From a virus (lineage: Duplodnaviria; Heunggongvirae; Uroviricota; Caudoviricetes): a stretch of DNA of 42,685 nt. Shown one piece after another: positions 25,966 to 30,492 of this stretch (within the stretch, counting starts at the first letter, position 1; every line of letters begins with the position of its first letter). The translations under genes were made by a program, and so were the position numbers. The notes beneath the pieces are model-generated. The model saw nothing but the letters and a program-made list of their open reading frames with translations, was not told the origin of the DNA and did no database searches. The stretch lies in IMG/VR virus record IMGVR_UViG_2563366963_000007. One strand, written 5' to 3'.

Positions 25966-26454
25966 ATGGCTACCAACCCAAGAGAGCACGCCCGGCGAGT
26001 GCTGGACACGTTCTGGTGCGGGCGTGGTTTCCCTGTTGATCCAGCGAAAATTGCTCACGACATGGGATTAGATGTTTTTATTACCGATCTTCCTGGGAAA
26101 GTTTCTGGCGCACTGATTAAACAAAAAGATCAAGATCCAGCGATCTTTCTAAACAGTGATGACAACAAAGTTCGTCAACGTTTTTCATGTGGGCATGAGT
26201 TGGGGCATTACATCGCCCGGCAAGCATCGCATAGCGATGAATATGAGTACGTTGATTTACGTGGCGAAACCGCAAGCGCCGGAACGCATCCTGATGAAAT
26301 TTTTGCAAACAAGTTCGCAGCAGAACTTCTGATGCCGGTAGATGAGGTCAGAAAACTGCACGCTGACGGTCAACCAAGTTATATAATGGCGCATTATTTT
26401 GGCGTATCTGACGATGCGATGACTTATCGTTTAAAGAACTTGAGGTTGGGGTAA
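25966..26454 (+). CDS. ImmA/IrrE-family zinc metallopeptidase
   Basis: 162-aa ORF with GGAGG upstream; canonical HEXXH (CGHELGHYI) followed by EIFANKFAAELLMP, the signature of the ImmA/IrrE (M78) family. Confidence 0.8.
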   Translation: MATNPREHARRVLDTFWCGRGFPVDPAKIAHDMGLDVFITDLPGKVSGALIKQKDQDPAIFLNSDDNKVRQRFSCGHELGHYIARQASHSDEYEYVDLRGETASAGTHPDEIFANKFAAELLMPVDEVRKLHADGQPSYIMAHYFGVSDDAMTYRLKNLRLG

Positions 26455-26463
26455 CGCTTTAAA

Positions 26464-27069
26464 ATGCCATCGGATGACGATTTTAACAGCCGTTTCAAAC
26501 AGGAAGTAGCACGCAGACTGAAGGATTCCCTCAACCTACACCGTCAGTTAGCAGAAGAGGTTGAGCCGGAGGACGATGAAACTCCGGTTCAGTCTCCTGA
26601 CGAAGCTTCACCTCAGCCAAAGGTTTCGCACGCCCCCAAAAAAACGGCTGTCCGTATTCGCGGAATAGCCAGAAAAAGAGCTGCCGAAGCTCGCAAAATG
26701 GCTGTAGCTGCGTCTAGCAAAAGAATTCCAACTGCTACACCCTCTCAACAAGTCACCCGTACTGAGAGTAAAATCTTGACCGAGTTCACATCTGTGAAAC
26801 AGGTGAATTCACTTGATACCGAGCATGAGCGCAAACAACTCAACAACAAAGATTTTGAAGCAGAAATCGCTCTAAAAAAACGATACGGGAAATGGTTCCT
26901 GATTATCCTTGCTTTCCAACTTCTGATAATGAATGGTGTATTTATTGCCGACGGCGCAGGTAAGCTGGAATTTGAGGATTTAACACTACAGTTGTACATG
27001 GGCGGTACTTTGACAGAGGTATTCGGCCTCGTGCTGGTCGTGACAAAATACCTTTTTAAACGCAAGTAA
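26464..27069 (+). CDS. membrane protein with charged N-terminal region and C-terminal two-helix anchor
   Basis: 201-aa ORF starting 7 nt after the peptidase stop codon; two hydrophobic helices at the C-terminus (WFLIILAFQLLIMNGVFIADGAG and GGTLTEVFGLVLVVTKYLF). Confidence 0.55.
   Translation: MPSDDDFNSRFKQEVARRLKDSLNLHRQLAEEVEPEDDETPVQSPDEASPQPKVSHAPKKTAVRIRGIARKRAAEARKMAVAASSKRIPTATPSQQVTRTESKILTEFTSVKQVNSLDTEHERKQLNNKDFEAEIALKKRYGKWFLIILAFQLLIMNGVFIADGAGKLEFEDLTLQLYMGGTLTEVFGLVLVVTKYLFKRK
26998..27069 (+). repeat. direct repeat copy A (3' end of the membrane-protein gene)
   Basis: 72-bp segment about 92 percent identical to 30421-30492. Confidence 0.85.
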
Positions 27070-27314
27070 CTCTCTCGGTCCAACAGTCTTTCGAAGGCCC
27101 TGATCAAAGGGCCTTGATAAATTAGCAGTGCGTTGAAAACAGATAGTTATTCCCATCAGCTCCAACGTAATACACATCAAAAAAATCACCATTCTTTTGC
27201 TCTAACGTCAACACCTACCCTTAAAAAAATAATTCTCCAAGAATGAGAAAGTTATTGTGTGTATTAGATAAGATATGAGCTGACACATCTATGGCGTGGA
27301 GCCAAATTTAATAT

Positions 27315-27346
27315 GACAGTCCGCTCTGTGCCATAAGCGGACTGTC
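27315..27346 (-). terminator. 11-bp perfect inverted repeat hairpin
   Basis: GACAGTCCGCT-CTGTGCCATA-AGCGGACTGTC about 190 nt downstream of the 27532..28230 minus-strand gene; AT-rich flanks. Confidence 0.35.
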
Positions 27347-27531
27347 AATAAACAGATTCACTTGTAAATCTTGAAGCTATACATATTTACTTTCAATGAT
27401 AAATAAAAGAACTATCCAAAAATCACTGAGAGCATATTTTAACTAACCCTCCGCTACTATTAACATAAATTTCACCCAACCATAATTAAATTGATACATA
27501 TAGCAACTTACCTTGATACGAATCATCTGGG

Positions 27532-28230
27532 TTATATTTTTCCATATTTTTTTCCGTCAAATCGAATCATGCCAGGATCAAGAAAATTAATTAAATCGAT
27601 TAACGCGTGCTGTATTCTGATTAGCCTTTCTTTATAAATTCCGATATCTCTTGTCATATTTATCACTTCATTGTTTAAATCTAAAAAAAATGGCTCATTG
27701 ATAAAGCAATTTTCCTTTGTGAAACTGCCGTAACCTATGCAATCAAATCCAGTATCTGTTGATATCAGCATCTTTTCTGCAATAGCTCTCTGCTCTCCTA
27801 TGAAAAACATAAAATACTGACCAAAGACGTCTGTTTGGATTAATGAGTTAATATTGTTCTGTAATCTAATAAACTCCCTCATTTTTTTATTTTTTTCTAG
27901 GCTAAGGTATTGAATGTCTATGCGGGCAGCTTCTGTCCATGCAAAAAACTGGGAAAAAAGAAAAACAGTATTGTTGATAACATAATCTTGTTGGCGCTTA
28001 TTCCCATTATGATAAAACTCTTCAATGAACCCCAATTCTAATATATTATAAATACGGCTTTGTAAGTCTGAAGCTGAGCGAATTAACGGTTCAATATAGT
28101 ACTGATGTTTTCTCCTTACATCCAGTGATTCATTGAGCTTGTTTATTCTATTCTGATTATAAGTAGATATAGCAATAGAGATTATAGCTATTGCACCACT
28201 AATAAAGCTTGAAATTAATGCCGTACCCAT
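27532..28230 (-). CDS. hypothetical membrane-anchored protein (orphan, low GC)
   Basis: 232-aa ORF with one N-terminal hydrophobic helix and a C-terminal domain of unknown family; strongly AT-rich codon usage. Confidence 0.5.
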   Translation of the reverse strand: MGTALISSFISGAIAIISIAISTYNQNRINKLNESLDVRRKHQYYIEPLIRSASDLQSRIYNILELGFIEEFYHNGNKRQQDYVINNTVFLFSQFFAWTEAARIDIQYLSLEKNKKMREFIRLQNNINSLIQTDVFGQYFMFFIGEQRAIAEKMLISTDTGFDCIGYGSFTKENCFINEPFFLDLNNEVINMTRDIGIYKERLIRIQHALIDLINFLDPGMIRFDGKKYGKI

Positions 28231-28793
28231 CTAAAAGTCCTTTGATTCTTGCTTGGTTAACAAAATGACATAATTTTATTTAATGCCATAACAACTTAAC
28301 AATATATCATAATATGATTATTATGGTGTAGCTTGTCGCATCTACGCTCCATTACAAACAGATGTAAGATATAACCTATATGTTTTAGCCAGCAAATTCG
28401 AAAGCATTCAAAGTAGTCTCATCGAACTCTCGAAACCCTATGTCTTCGGGTATAAAATATTTAAATCCATTTGCATAATATCGACTCATGTTTATTATAT
28501 TCTCCCCATTCACCATTAAGATTTGACATTATTTTCAACAATCGGTTATTGCAAGATTGAAATATATTTTTACTTGACACAATATTCCATGTAGCCCAGC
28601 GATTCGACTTACCCCCAACTATACGGACAATCTAAATTAAATCGATGATTTTTTGATACATTCTCCTCTCTCCATTACTTTATGTTTTTGTTCCCCAAAA
28701 ATACCTTGCTCTCTAAAAAATAATTGTTCTTTAAGTTCAAAATCGAGATCTACATGAGCGTTAGATACAAAGCTAATATGTTGAAATGTCTTT

Positions 28794-28802
28794 CCCCCCC
28801 CC
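28794..28802. repeat. homopolymeric C9 tract
   Basis: Nine consecutive C in an ORF-free AT-rich stretch. Confidence 0.8.
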
Positions 28803-29418
28803 ATAACGGCATTGTTATCTAAACTATGTTACACAAATATAATATTACCCTTTCAACGTAATCCAAGAATAAGATTAATGCCATTATATATATCATAAAT
28901 ATGATATTTTGTATATTTTTATCATTTAGCCTTGATTGTACTAGGTGTACTCTCAACGAAGTAGGGAAAGTCTGTTCCTCGCTCACAGCTGCCCTTCAGT
29001 AAGCGAAAAAATGCCTACTCGGTGCCATATACAGCCATTGTTATTAACAGCAGGGAATAATTCAAAACTGAAATTAAATATCTACCTTTTACAGTAGAAA
29101 TAGTTCCTCCAGGACACTATCCATTGCCGGGCACAATCACTCGGGGTATAACGATATAAAATATGTTCATGATAGTGCAGGTTCGTATATTAAGTTCAGC
29201 AGCGAAAACATGCCTTACAGGTTTCCGGTTTTGGGAGCGTCGTTACAGGATCCTGCGCATACCGTTCCCATCTGTTGAATTAAAGGTTTCACAGCCTTTG
29301 CCGATATCACCTTTTACCTTACCTGTGATGCGTTCAGTGCTCAGCGTTGTTTACTGTAGCTCTCGGGACTGATTACAGACCGCGTCTTAAAAACCAATCC
29401 TTACTCTAAAGGGAATTC

Positions 29419-30342
29419 ATGAGATTAAAATACTCAGTACTCTTACTCGCCATTGCCCTTACAGGCTGTGATAACAAAAAAGATGAGATCGGTTGTTCTT
29501 CGGAAATAACCCAGTCAGCTCTCATGGATTTATTAAAAAAATCTGCTTATGAAGGACTCTCTGAACAGGTCGATAAATACCCTGATGTTACTAATCAGAC
29601 CAAACGAAGCACACTGGACAAGATCAAACTAGCCATCTCTGAGATCTCCACAACATCAAGTGACACGGGCAGCACAATGAAAACTTGTGAAGGGACCGTG
29701 ACGATGACTCTATCTGCGAACGAGTACGTCCAGCTTTCAGATGCTTACAGAAAGAATTTTAATCGTAATCTCGATAAGCAAATGGAAAGCCTGTTTTTGG
29801 AGAACAACGCAAACGCCTTTTCAAAACGTATCACCTACACCGTGCAGGCGACCGACGATCAGAAAAACGTTTTTGTAAAAACCTCTACTGATAATCCGAT
29901 ATCAGTGGGCGCCGCTTTACTGACATCGCTTTCCATTATCACCCCGATCGTTGAGCAGCAGAAAATCCAGCAGGCTAAGGATGCCCAACAGAGTCAAATT
30001 GAAGCGGAACAACAGGTGCAACTCAGGGCGCAAGAACAGGCTAAGTATGAGGCGGAGAAGCAAATAGAGAGACAGGCACAACTTCAGCCGCAAAAAGCTG
30101 ACAACCTTGATCAGTCCCGAATGGCATTTGCGAATGCCGACTCTGATTTGAGTACCGTCTGGAGCAAGTTAACCCCGGCGAAGAAAAAAGATTTGCTGCC
30201 TTCTCAGCGTCAGTGGATCAAAACTAAGGATGCTATGTGCGGTAAAGTTTCAATGCAGGGAACAGATGCTGAAGTCAAGAAAATGGTCGACTGCCAGACG
30301 CAAATGACCCTTTCAAGAATCGCTTTCCTCAGAAACCAATAA
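29419..30342 (+). CDS. lipoprotein with DUF1311 / LprI-like C-terminal domain
   Basis: 307-aa ORF; signal peptide plus lipobox (LLAIALTGC); Gln-rich coiled-coil middle; C-terminal LPSQRQWIKTKDAMC...MVDCQTQMTLSRIAFLRN resembles DUF1311. Confidence 0.6.
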   Translation: MRLKYSVLLLAIALTGCDNKKDEIGCSSEITQSALMDLLKKSAYEGLSEQVDKYPDVTNQTKRSTLDKIKLAISEISTTSSDTGSTMKTCEGTVTMTLSANEYVQLSDAYRKNFNRNLDKQMESLFLENNANAFSKRITYTVQATDDQKNVFVKTSTDNPISVGAALLTSLSIITPIVEQQKIQQAKDAQQSQIEAEQQVQLRAQEQAKYEAEKQIERQAQLQPQKADNLDQSRMAFANADSDLSTVWSKLTPAKKKDLLPSQRQWIKTKDAMCGKVSMQGTDAEVKKMVDCQTQMTLSRIAFLRNQ

Positions 30343-30420: not shown

Positions 30421-30492
30421 ATGGGCGGTACTTTGACAGAGGTATTCGGTCTCGTGCTGGTCGTGGTCAAATACCTTTTTAAGCGCAAATAG
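30421..30492 (+). repeat. direct repeat copy B (orphan 3' gene fragment)
   Basis: Duplicates the last 24 codons of the 26464..27069 gene (MGGTLTEVFGLVLVVVKYLFKRK) with a stop immediately upstream in frame. Confidence 0.85.

What the first reader, a model, noticed from the sequence alone, without database searches (positions are those of the whole stretch)
27532..28230. Orphan low-GC membrane-anchored protein as a candidate single-gene exclusion or abortive-infection factor
A 232-aa protein with one N-terminal transmembrane helix and a C-terminal domain I cannot place, encoded on the opposite strand inside the AT-rich island, with its own AT-rich upstream region and a strong downstream hairpin (27315-27346). 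Isolated, foreign-composition membrane proteins in prophage accessory islands are frequently exclusion or abortive-infection factors.
Basis: inference. Interest (0 to 1): 0.55.

Follow-up and report, generated by a model that had tools for sequence, protein, structure and literature searches.

The report
Stand-alone relative of a defence membrane protein
This prophage gene is real and encodes a membrane-anchored protein from a large uncharacterised bacterial family; its only known relative is the membrane partner of a validated reverse-transcriptase anti-phage system, so a defence role is plausible but untested.

Summary
The ORF (27532-28230, minus strand, 232 aa) is real. It has one N-terminal TM helix, 32% GC against 48% for the window, a Shine-Dalgarno site, a strong downstream hairpin and dN/dS of 0.12-0.25. 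It is not an orphan: the family has about 1,900 representatives at 50% identity across many phyla, no Pfam or NCBIfam model, and no specific fold match. All 46 sampled members match PADLOC's RTasTM models. Those models are built on the 1TM partner of the validated "RT-nitrilase + 1TM" (UG5) system of E. coli E101. Profile-profile comparison gives 96% probability, E 2e-9. RTasTM genes overlap an RT gene, but no homolog of the window gene has an RT or nitrilase beside it, and at least 90% of E. coli carriers lack that RT. The gene travels in a 1.7-kb cassette also found in the Z locus of phage P2-EC58. Here it fills a variable prophage slot where a sister prophage carries a GIY-YIG nuclease. Best reading: an autonomous membrane-tethered cytoplasmic module, most likely anti-phage. 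The phenotype and mechanism are inferred, not shown. It is a new variant of a known kind, of moderate interest.

The parts
27532..28230 (-). CDS, 232 aa: membrane-anchored protein ('lysogenic protein', phrog_5606; RefSeq WP_000536231.1 in strain SK1144)
   Evidence: ORF. Full-length phrog_5606 match at 7e-163. dN/dS 0.12-0.25. RefSeq annotation.
28162..28224 (-). Codons for residues 3-23: the single N-terminal transmembrane helix
   Evidence: Kyte-Doolittle 19-residue window above 1.6 only for windows starting at residues 1-6. 220 of 234 family proteins have exactly one such segment. The AF2 model has a continuous helix over residues 3-65.
27535..28101 (-). Codons for residues 44-232: conserved, predicted cytoplasmic helical-bundle domain with invariant D55 Q57 S58 R59 N62 Y83 Q94 W98 E100 R103 G145 E146 Q147 R148 Q207 D218 P219
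   Evidence: Alignment A1. AF2 pLDDT 87, pTM 0.79. Residues 37-187 align to the RT-associated 1TM family at hhalign probability 96%.
28238..28242 (-). Shine-Dalgarno AAGGA, 7-nt spacer to the ATG
   Evidence: Read from the sequence. P2-EC58 annotates an RBS at the equivalent place.
28273..28302 (-). Best-placed sigma-70-like match (TTGTTA, 18 nt, TAAAAT; 9 of 12), 43-72 nt upstream of the ATG. Candidate promoter only.
   Evidence: The number of such matches in the region is not above the shuffled expectation. The P2-EC58 depositors placed -35/-10 about 200 nt upstream instead.
27314..27347 (-). Palindromic hairpin, terminator-like, 185 nt downstream of the stop codon. It is the 'left inverted repeat' of the P2-EC58 Z-region cassette.
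   Evidence: 13-bp stem. -26 kcal/mol, z = -5.2. Identical element in P2-EC58. It also occurs 3' of an unrelated gene in another island in about 190 genomes.
27260..28989 (-). 1.73-kb cassette shared with the phage P2-EC58 Z region (86% identity overall): gene, hairpin and ~760 bp of AT-rich non-coding upstream DNA
   Evidence: No conserved small ORF, no Rfam match and no RefSeq feature in the upstream part.
27092..29017 (.). Variable cargo slot of this prophage family, between the 201-aa membrane-protein gene and the lprI-family gene
   Evidence: The strain D217-5 prophage has flanks at 91-98% identity, but the slot holds a GIY-YIG nuclease and two small hypotheticals.

Best explanation
The gene encodes a bitopic inner-membrane protein: a 3-residue periplasmic N-terminus, one TM helix that continues into a long stalk helix, and a cytoplasmic helical bundle of about 190 residues with a strictly conserved polar cluster.

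Shown:
- It belongs to a large, phylogenetically scattered, uncharacterised family.
- It is a remote homolog, with the same predicted architecture, of the 1TM protein encoded immediately downstream of the UG5 RT-nitrilase in a validated anti-phage system.
- Unlike that protein, it has no RT or nitrilase partner.
- It moves as a small self-contained cassette between unrelated temperate phages and other mobile elements, and it occupies a swappable cargo slot.

Inferred: it is an autonomous anti-phage module expressed from the lysogen. The proposed mechanism is that the cytoplasmic bundle uses its conserved R59/Y83/Q94/W98/R103/E146-Q147-R148 surface to bind a phage-derived cue (a protein, or nucleic acid or nucleotide). 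The stalk and TM helix then oligomerise and compromise the inner membrane, or arrest the cell, so that infection aborts. RT-nitrilase systems would have recruited a diverged copy of this module as an optional effector or anchor, and rare relatives have bolted an S1 protease or a LuxR-type HTH onto it as alternative outputs.
For: Homology:
- The window protein hits PADLOC RTasTM at E 1.8e-5.
- 46 of 46 family members hit PDLC03799 (best 9.8e-11), and 35 of 46 hit PDLC03013.
- The E101 1TM protein taken from Table S2A of PMC9122126 matches those two models at 5e-164 and 1e-122 over its full length, so the models are that protein.
- hhalign of one E101 sequence against A1 gives 95%, E 3.5e-8. A1 against A7 gives 96.2%, E 2.2e-9 over 144 columns.
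- The two AF2 models have the same order of secondary-structure elements, including a beta-hairpin at the conserved Cys-x-x-Tyr.
- R59, Y83, Q94, W98, R103, E146, Q147, C164 and Y167 are conserved in both families.

Validated relative: the RT-nitrilase + 1TM cassette protects against phage (PMC9122126). RTasTM genes overlap the 3' end of a ~960-aa RVT_1 gene.

Autonomy:
- No conserved neighbour in 80 loci, and no RT or nitrilase among the flanking genes scanned.
- The E101-type RT is in 38 of 5,426 E. coli genomes, against 425 with this gene.

Mobility and hotspot:
- The cassette is shared with the P2-EC58 Z region.
- The Providencia homolog lies among P2-like tail genes beside an AAA_15 ATPase.
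- An 85% homolog is on a relaxase-bearing island.
- The slot holds a GIY-YIG nuclease in D217-5.
- Some homologs sit beside SIR2-HerA, HsdR, an nSTAND1 NTPase, a helicase-nuclease or PLD genes.

Topology. Output-type fusions: S1 protease and LuxR HTH.
Against: - No experiment addresses this protein or any member of its family; the literature searches found none.
- The role of the RT-associated homologs is unknown. [quoted passage not shown] Rousset et al. tested the two-gene cassette, not the TM gene alone.
- Homology is remote (19-25% identity) and covers the bundle only.
- The neighbourhood signal is weak and uncalibrated. By my rough tally from family-level counts, about 9-12 of 148 adjacent ORFs hit PADLOC models at E < 1e-10, against about 12-16 of 107 distal ORFs. 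So there is no enrichment next to the gene. Many neighbours are housekeeping genes such as pullulanase, UvrC, YchF and MCCase.
- A single TM helix is a minimal pore former, and oligomerisation was not modelled.
Confidence: 0.42

Rival explanations
1. Membrane-tethered sensor or adaptor without killing activity. The conserved bundle binds a ligand or partner and passes the signal to something else: a host or prophage protein here, an RT-nitrilase in the UG5 systems, or a fused protease or HTH in rare relatives. In the lysogen it could tune prophage induction, or another defence system, and would not itself stop phages.
For: - The fusion partners are output-type domains placed C-terminal to the conserved domain: an S1 protease in P0129 and P0130, and a LuxR HTH in P0206.
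- The related TM proteins are dispensable for defence in the RT-nitrilase systems studied, as expected of a modulator.
- The strictly conserved polar residues lie on several helices of a soluble bundle, which looks more like a binding site than a membrane-disrupting device.
Against: - Most family members are about 240 aa with no fused output and no conserved neighbour, so a dedicated partner would have to be encoded elsewhere or be universal.
- The gene moves alone between phages of different types, which favours a self-sufficient function.
Confidence: 0.22
2. Superinfection-exclusion protein that blocks genome entry of incoming phages at the inner membrane, like P22 SieA or T4 Imm.
For: - It is a small membrane-anchored protein carried by temperate phages.
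- It lies in the P2 Z locus.
- It is constitutively carried by hundreds of lysogens without obvious cost.
Against: - Only about 3 residues are predicted to be periplasmic. The conserved domain is on the cytoplasmic side and has no paired cysteines.
- The family is widespread outside prophages, in Acidobacteriota, Cyanobacteria, Actinomycetota and others, which is unlike the narrow, phage-specific Sie proteins.
- Its only detectable relative works with a cytoplasmic RT-nitrilase.
Confidence: 0.1
3. An accessory membrane protein with a role unrelated to phages, such as envelope or stress physiology or host fitness, that happens to hitchhike on mobile elements.
For: - Many homologs lie among ordinary metabolic genes. 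One lineage has it tightly packed between an amidohydrolase and the MCCase alpha-subunit gene.
- Neighbourhood defence hits are not enriched close to the gene.
- Other cargo in this same island includes a lysozyme-inhibitor LprI-family lipoprotein, which is not a classical anti-phage gene.
Against: - The distribution is sporadic: 268 of 185,579 species genomes by a pattern-limited scan.
- It shows foreign composition, and repeated carriage on phages and on a mobilisable island.
- The only homology found is to a defence-system component.
Confidence: 0.18
4. Decaying or functionless passenger ORF.
For: The upstream 760 bp of the cassette looks like non-coding or decayed DNA with no conserved ORFs.
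Against: - dN/dS is 0.12-0.25, and the ORF is better conserved than its flanks.
- 23 columns are invariant across 46 sequences at 35-85% identity.
- The AF2 model is confident.
Confidence: 0.03

Closest known systems
RTasTM: the '1TM' protein of the UG5-large 'RT-nitrilase + 1TM' anti-phage system (E. coli E101 P4-like satellite, plasmid pFR76; Rousset et al. 2022, PMC9122126; PADLOC PDLC03013 and PDLC03799)
   Same: - Similar length (229 against 232 aa), one N-terminal TM helix, and the same predicted series of helices with a small beta-hairpin.
- Profile-profile homology over 144 columns.
- Shared invariant R, Y, Q, W, R, E-Q, C and Y positions.
- Carried in a phage or satellite cargo hotspot.
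   Different: - 19-25% identity only.
- RTasTM is always next to, and overlapping, an RT-nitrilase gene. It is confined to 29 clusters of Enterobacterales.
- The window family has no RT neighbour, is about 60-fold larger and spans many phyla.
- D55, E100 and D218 of the window family are not conserved in RTasTM.
Drt1b, the transmembrane accessory protein of DRT type 1 (UG1 RT-nitrilase)
   Same: A small TM protein that optionally accompanies an RT-nitrilase. Its function is unknown, and it is speculated to act like the ion-channel effector of the Hailong system (PMC13275509).
   Different: There is no significant sequence relationship: only 1 of 46 family members touches the PADLOC Drt1b model, at E 0.005.
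SLATT-domain membrane effectors (CBASS, RADAR, UG17/DRT10, AbiA, UG23)
   Same: A mobile membrane module that is plugged into different defence systems, including RT systems, as an effector or accessory, and that also occurs detached (PMC9226505). This is the best functional analogy for how the family may behave.
   Different: SLATT proteins have 2-3 TM helices. There is no Pfam SLATT hit here and only one TM helix. They are not homologous by any test run.
Lysogenic-conversion genes of P2-like phages: Z/fun, tin, old, and the Abi-P2 reverse transcriptase
   Same: - It has the same kind of genomic niche. The homolog in P2-EC58 is the sole ORF of that phage's Z region.
- P2-EC58 also carries an Abi-P2 RT in a variable region of its genome (PMC9508834).
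- The P2 old and tin genes have previously reported anti-phage activity, and P2-like phages carry a hotspot of anti-phage systems (PMC9122126).
   Different: No sequence similarity to any of them was detected. In this window the gene is in a lambdoid-type prophage, between the nin-like region and Q, and not in a P2 genome.

Membership tests
RT-nitrilase + 1TM system (UG5-large; PADLOC 'DRT', RTasTM component) | Protein homologous to the 1TM component | tested here: met
   46 of 46 family members hit PDLC03799, with the window protein at 1.8e-5. hhalign A1 against A7 gives 96.2%, E 2.2e-9. The homology is remote, not subfamily-level.
RT-nitrilase + 1TM system (UG5-large; PADLOC 'DRT', RTasTM component) | Gene lies immediately downstream of a UG5/UG1 reverse transcriptase fused to a nitrilase | tested here: not met
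   The window neighbours are ImmA, a 201-aa TM protein and LprI. No RVT_1 or CN_hydrolase was found among the flanking genes of 80 homolog loci. True RTasTM genes overlap an RVT_1 gene.
RT-nitrilase + 1TM system (UG5-large; PADLOC 'DRT', RTasTM component) | A matching RT-nitrilase is present elsewhere in the same genome (action in trans) | tested here: not met
   The E101-type RT 5' end is in 38 of 5,426 E. coli genomes, against 425 genomes with this gene. More divergent RT-nitrilases were not searched.
RT-nitrilase + 1TM system (UG5-large; PADLOC 'DRT', RTasTM component) | Confers phage resistance | not testable with these tools
   This needs cloning and phage challenge. Only the two-gene E101 cassette has been tested (PMC9122126).
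DRT type 1 accessory protein Drt1b | Match to the Drt1b profile | tested here: not met
   1 of 46 members at E 0.0051, and none for the window protein.
SLATT membrane effectors | 2-3 TM helices and a match to the SLATT Pfam models | tested here: not met
   One TM-like segment and no SLATT hit in Pfam at E up to 0.1.
Phage moron (autonomous accessory cassette) | Deviant base composition relative to the phage | tested here: met
   GC 0.323 for the cassette against 0.482 for the window.
Phage moron (autonomous accessory cassette) | Present or absent among otherwise related phages, and found in unrelated phages | tested here: met
   The slot is replaced by other cargo in D217-5. The same cassette is in the P2-EC58 Z region.
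Phage moron (autonomous accessory cassette) | Own terminator | tested here: met
   Hairpin 27314-27347, z = -5.2, followed by a U-rich tail that is only moderate (TATTAAATTT).
Phage moron (autonomous accessory cassette) | Own promoter, with expression in the lysogen | tested here: inconclusive
   Promoter-like sites exist at 28273-28302, but they are not above chance in this AT-rich DNA. No expression data were available.
ClyA-type alpha-pore-forming toxins | Significant fold similarity to the ClyA, Hbl or Smh bundle | tested here: not met

The most novel reading that the evidence does not exclude
The family is a widespread, fully autonomous single-protein immune module, with sensor and membrane effector in about 235 residues. 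RT-nitrilase (UG5) systems later captured it as their TM component. Its conserved Arg/Tyr/Trp/Gln/Glu pocket would then recognise the same class of signal as in those systems, for example single-stranded DNA or a nucleotide product. That would make it a handle on the still unexplained role of TM partners in RT-based defence.
Probability: 0.2. Interest if true: 0.7.

Novelty: new variant of a known kind. Interest (0 to 1): 0.48.

Why it matters
- **An open question becomes testable.** The membrane partners of RT-nitrilase defence systems (Drt1b, RTasTM) have no known function. This work shows that the UG5-associated one is a small offshoot of a much larger family of stand-alone genes found across bacterial phyla. 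That points to a self-sufficient module that RT systems borrowed, much as SLATT proteins are borrowed.
- **A tractable test case.** The E. coli copy sits on a 1.7-kb cassette. It is in about 8% of complete E. coli genomes, mostly the pandemic ST131 lineage, so it may contribute to that lineage's phage resistance, which is relevant to phage therapy.
- **If no phage phenotype is found,** the family remains a conserved membrane-tethered domain of unknown role that deserves a Pfam entry.

Tried and rejected
- **Pfam and NCBIfam scans:** nothing for this protein. The CNNM hit (E 0.057) is only the TM helix.
- **PDB sequence search with the profile:** one chance hit at E 1.1.
- **Conserved-partner search in 80 loci:** none found. 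The one recurrent 'operon' (an amidohydrolase and MCCase subunit genes) is a lineage-specific insertion in near-identical genomes.
- **Hidden partner gene or ncRNA in the 760 bp upstream:** no conserved ORF between the window and P2-EC58, no Rfam match, no RefSeq feature, and no conservation in Pantoea, Citrobacter, Rahnella or Serratia homolog loci.
- **Flanking inverted repeats as a mobility signature:** the left 'repeat' is simply the terminator-like palindrome, which also occurs 3' of an unrelated gene elsewhere. The window has no good right-hand copy.
- **Near-versus-far PADLOC neighbourhood test:** no enrichment adjacent to the gene and no proper genomic background, so it is not used as support. 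One call failed on the size limit.
- **Literature searches:** searches for 'RTasTM', 'lysogenic protein' and ST131 prophage defence found nothing on this gene.

Full report
**1. What is there**

The window is a chromosomal E. coli prophage. In strain SK1144 the identical region lies next to tRNA-Leu/Cys/Gly, pgsA and uvrC. It contains an integrase, cI/cro-like regulators, a DnaB-type helicase, Q, lysis genes and head and contractile-tail genes, nearly all on the minus strand of the window.

The reported ORF exists exactly as stated: 27532..28230, minus strand, ATG start, 232 aa. It has an AAGGA Shine-Dalgarno sequence 7 nt upstream. GC is 0.32 for the ORF and 0.319 for the 760 bp upstream, against 0.482 for the whole window.

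The downstream hairpin is real and strong. It spans 27314-27347 with a 13-bp stem, -26 kcal/mol, z = -5.2, and none of 200 shuffles folds as well.

The protein has a single hydrophobic segment at residues ~3-23. The 22 residues after it hold 5 K/R and 2 D/E, so by the positive-inside rule the C-terminal ~200 residues face the cytoplasm (inference from an established rule).

It is a genuine gene. dN/dS is 0.25 against the P2-EC58 copy and 0.14 against an 85%-identical homolog. The ORF is 94% identical to P2-EC58 while the co-travelling flanks are 81%.

**2. It is not an orphan**

The protein matches phrog_5606 over its full length, at 7e-163. The word-indexed search found 290 relatives, some named 'lysogenic protein'; that name appears to derive from the P2-EC58 record's 'putative lysogenic protein' label. 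The exhaustive profile search found 1,913 representatives at 50% identity with E ≤ 1e-3, and 421 with E ≤ 1e-30. A scan of one genome per species found relatives in 268 species: Pseudomonadota, Acidobacteriota, Cyanobacteria, Actinomycetota, Bacteroidota, Bacillota and others.

None of these proteins has a precomputed Pfam domain, and the window protein matches no Pfam or NCBIfam model. Of 234 family proteins of 200-300 aa, 220 have exactly one TM-like segment.

The alignment (A1, 46 sequences at 35-85% identity) shows 23 invariant columns. They include D55, Q57, S58, R59, N62, Y83, Q94, W98, E100, R103, G145-E146-Q147-R148, Q207 and D218-P219. These are polar residues spread over several helices of the soluble domain.

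**3. The one informative relationship**

PADLOC gave a weak hit to 'RTasTM (DRT)' at 1.8e-5. I tested whether this is consistent across the family. All 46 members hit model PDLC03799 (best 9.8e-11), and 35 hit a second RTasTM model.

To learn what the model represents, I read Mestre et al. (PMC9226505) and Rousset et al. (PMC9122126). I extracted from Rousset's Table S2A the 229-aa '1 TM' protein 2 of plasmid pFR76, the validated 'RT-nitrilase + 1TM' system of the E. coli E101 P4-like satellite. That protein matches the two PADLOC models over its full length at 5e-164 and 1e-122. The models are therefore that protein's family.

- **Direct comparisons.** BLASTP gives 25% identity over 97 residues, E 0.001. 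hhalign of the single sequence against A1 gives 95%, E 3.5e-8. After collecting and aligning the RTasTM family (A7), profile against profile gives 96.2%, E 2.2e-9 over 144 columns, covering window residues 37-187.
- **Shared residues.** R59, Y83, Q94, W98, R103, E146, Q147, I150-G151, C164, Y167 and F170 are conserved in both families.
- **Shared architecture.** An AF2 model of the E101 protein (pLDDT 86) has the same succession of elements.

Homology is therefore well supported but distant.

**4. How it differs from that relative**

RTasTM proteins form a small group of 29 clusters, all Enterobacterales. They are encoded immediately downstream of a ~960-aa RVT_1 protein, with the two ORFs overlapping by a few bases.

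The window family is different:
- In 80 loci no neighbour family is shared by more than 7 loci.
- Pfam scans of 58 same-strand neighbours, and of the 10 largest adjacent genes, found no RT or nitrilase.
- In E. coli the E101-type RT occurs in 38 of 5,426 complete genomes, against 425 genomes for this gene. So at least ~90% of carriers lack it.

The window gene is thus a stand-alone member of the superfamily. It fails the defining contextual feature of the RT-nitrilase + 1TM system.

**5. Genomic behaviour**

- **Shared cassette.** The gene lies in a 1.73-kb cassette (window 27260-28989) that is 86% identical to the Z-region of phage P2-EC58. There it is the only ORF, annotated 'putative lysogenic protein' and flanked by 'inverted repeats'. 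The left repeat is the terminator-like palindrome and the right is a degenerate copy.
- **Upstream DNA.** The 760 bp upstream has no ORF conserved between the two phages, no Rfam match and no RefSeq feature. It is not conserved in more distant homolog loci. I treat it as a non-coding leader or flank.
- **Variable slot.** The prophage has a variable slot at 27092-29017. In strain D217-5 the same flanks (91-98% identity) enclose a GIY-YIG nuclease and two small hypotheticals on the same strand.
- **Other contexts.** The Providencia homolog lies among P2-like tail genes beside an AAA_15 ATPase and a DUF2971 gene. An 85% homolog sits on an island with AlpA, MobC and a relaxase. A Xanthomonadaceae homolog follows a SIR2-HerA pair. 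Others follow HsdR, an nSTAND1-CHASE2 NTPase, a helicase-DUF559 nuclease or PLD genes. Many others sit beside housekeeping genes.
- **Neighbourhood test.** A near-versus-far PADLOC comparison showed no enrichment next to the gene. By my rough tally from family-level counts, about 9-12 of 148 adjacent ORFs hit, against about 12-16 of 107 distal ORFs, at E < 1e-10. I do not count the neighbourhood as evidence either way.
- **Clonal carriage.** The 409 near-identical E. coli copies are mostly ST131-lineage genomes. The count therefore reflects clonal spread of one prophage.

**6. Mechanism**

Shown: a bitopic membrane protein family with a conserved, predicted-cytoplasmic helical domain; homology to a component of a validated defence cassette; autonomy from RTs; carriage as a mobile cassette in phage cargo slots.

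Inferred: the protein is an anti-phage module. Rare relatives carry an S1 streptogrisin-type protease (P0130 has the His/Asp/GDSGS pattern, E 3e-6 to PDB 1hpg) or a LuxR HTH C-terminal to the conserved domain. This suggests that the conserved bundle is the sensing or regulatory part, and that in the plain ~235-aa proteins the output must be the TM and stalk helix itself.

My best guess follows from that. The conserved Arg/Tyr/Trp/Gln/Glu surface binds a phage cue, which drives oligomerisation and membrane damage or growth arrest, giving an abortive-infection-like outcome. I put about 0.4 on 'anti-phage function' and well below that on this particular mechanism.

Cautions: the role of the RT-associated TM proteins is unknown, and related RT-nitrilase systems defend without a TM partner (PMC13275509; PMC13436386). 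Oligomerisation was not modelled, and there are no experimental data for any family member.

**7. Rivals**

- A non-lethal membrane sensor or adaptor (0.22).
- A non-phage accessory function (0.18).
- Classical entry exclusion (0.10). This is disfavoured by the cytoplasmic orientation and the broad distribution outside prophages.
- A functionless passenger (0.03). This is contradicted by purifying selection.

**8. Novelty and verdict**

The gene was deposited in the P2-EC58 record as a 'putative lysogenic protein', and I found no characterisation of it since.

What is new here is its placement as the stand-alone, far larger branch of the superfamily that contains the UG5 RT-associated TM protein. 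That makes it a new variant of a known kind. It is not a member of the RT-nitrilase + 1TM system, because the adjacency criterion fails.

Interest is moderate. It offers a simple, testable route into what these TM partners do, and the gene sits in a clinically important E. coli lineage. The defence role itself remains unproven.

Noticed in passing
window ~29419-29450 and ~26174-26206; L096, L097: Type I-E CRISPR spacers in other E. coli genomes match this prophage island perfectly (32 of 32 nt). One targets the first codons of the lprI-family gene. It is in NZ_CP028578.2 next to cas2e and in at least 7 other listed genomes; the 122 records in the 90-95% identity band probably include more. The other targets the ImmA/IrrE gene and is in NZ_CP178438.1. 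Both lie between canonical repeats.
   Followed up: partly
window 27092-29017 vs L095 2693-4797: This is a cargo-swap hotspot. A sister prophage in strain D217-5 has the same flanks (91-98% identity) but carries a 134-aa hypothetical, a GIY-YIG nuclease family protein and a 65-aa hypothetical in place of this cassette.
   Followed up: partly
window 25966-26454 and 26464-27069 (+ strand): An ImmA/IrrE metalloprotease (Peptidase_M78; PADLOC CapP-like at 2.4e-25) is followed 10 nt later by a 201-aa protein with a hydrophobic C-terminal region (phrog_5346, no Pfam). This may be a protease plus membrane-protein module of its own.
   Followed up: no
window ~26998-27068 and ~30421-30491: A direct repeat of about 70 nt (about 93% identical) duplicates the 3' end and stop codon of the 201-aa gene downstream of the lprI-family gene. 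It brackets the variable slot plus lprI, and may be a recombination scar.
   Followed up: partly
window 28794-28802: A C9 homopolymer (G9 on the gene's strand) lies about 565 nt upstream of the ORF, directly after the ATG of a non-conserved 55-aa ORF (28637-28804). Its length is 8, 9 or 10 in different ST131 genomes. This could be slipped-strand variation or a homopolymer sequencing error. The tract is interrupted in P2-EC58.
   Followed up: partly
window 27305-27346; L098 and L099 4001-4042: The terminator-like palindrome also occurs, at about 90% identity, in about 190 E. coli genomes that lack the gene. There it sits just 3' of an unrelated 366-aa hypothetical gene, in an island with an integrase fragment and dynamin-family and RdcB genes.
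   Followed up: partly
window 29419-30342 (+): An LprI-family (lysozyme inhibitor) protein of 307 aa with a lipoprotein-type signal (…LTGC), carried as further prophage cargo (phrog_5094).
   Followed up: no
P0129, P0130, P0206 (family members outside the window): Rare relatives fuse the conserved membrane-anchored domain to a C-terminal S1 streptogrisin-type protease. P0130 has GDSGS, while P0129 has GDVGS and is possibly inactive. Another relative fuses it to a LuxR-type HTH.
   Followed up: partly
NZ_LR890693.1 (H2) and NZ_AP022044.1 (H22): In at least two ST131-type genomes an IS1 element has inserted within the cassette region. The match is split into two pieces around an IS1 transposase.
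   Followed up: no
L039, L041, L044, L048, L055, L061: In one group of near-identical Blastocatellia and 'Heliomicrobium' MAG contigs, the homolog (253 aa, TM helix retained) is wedged with overlapping ORFs between an amidohydrolase gene and the methylcrotonyl-CoA carboxylase alpha-subunit gene.
   Followed up: partly
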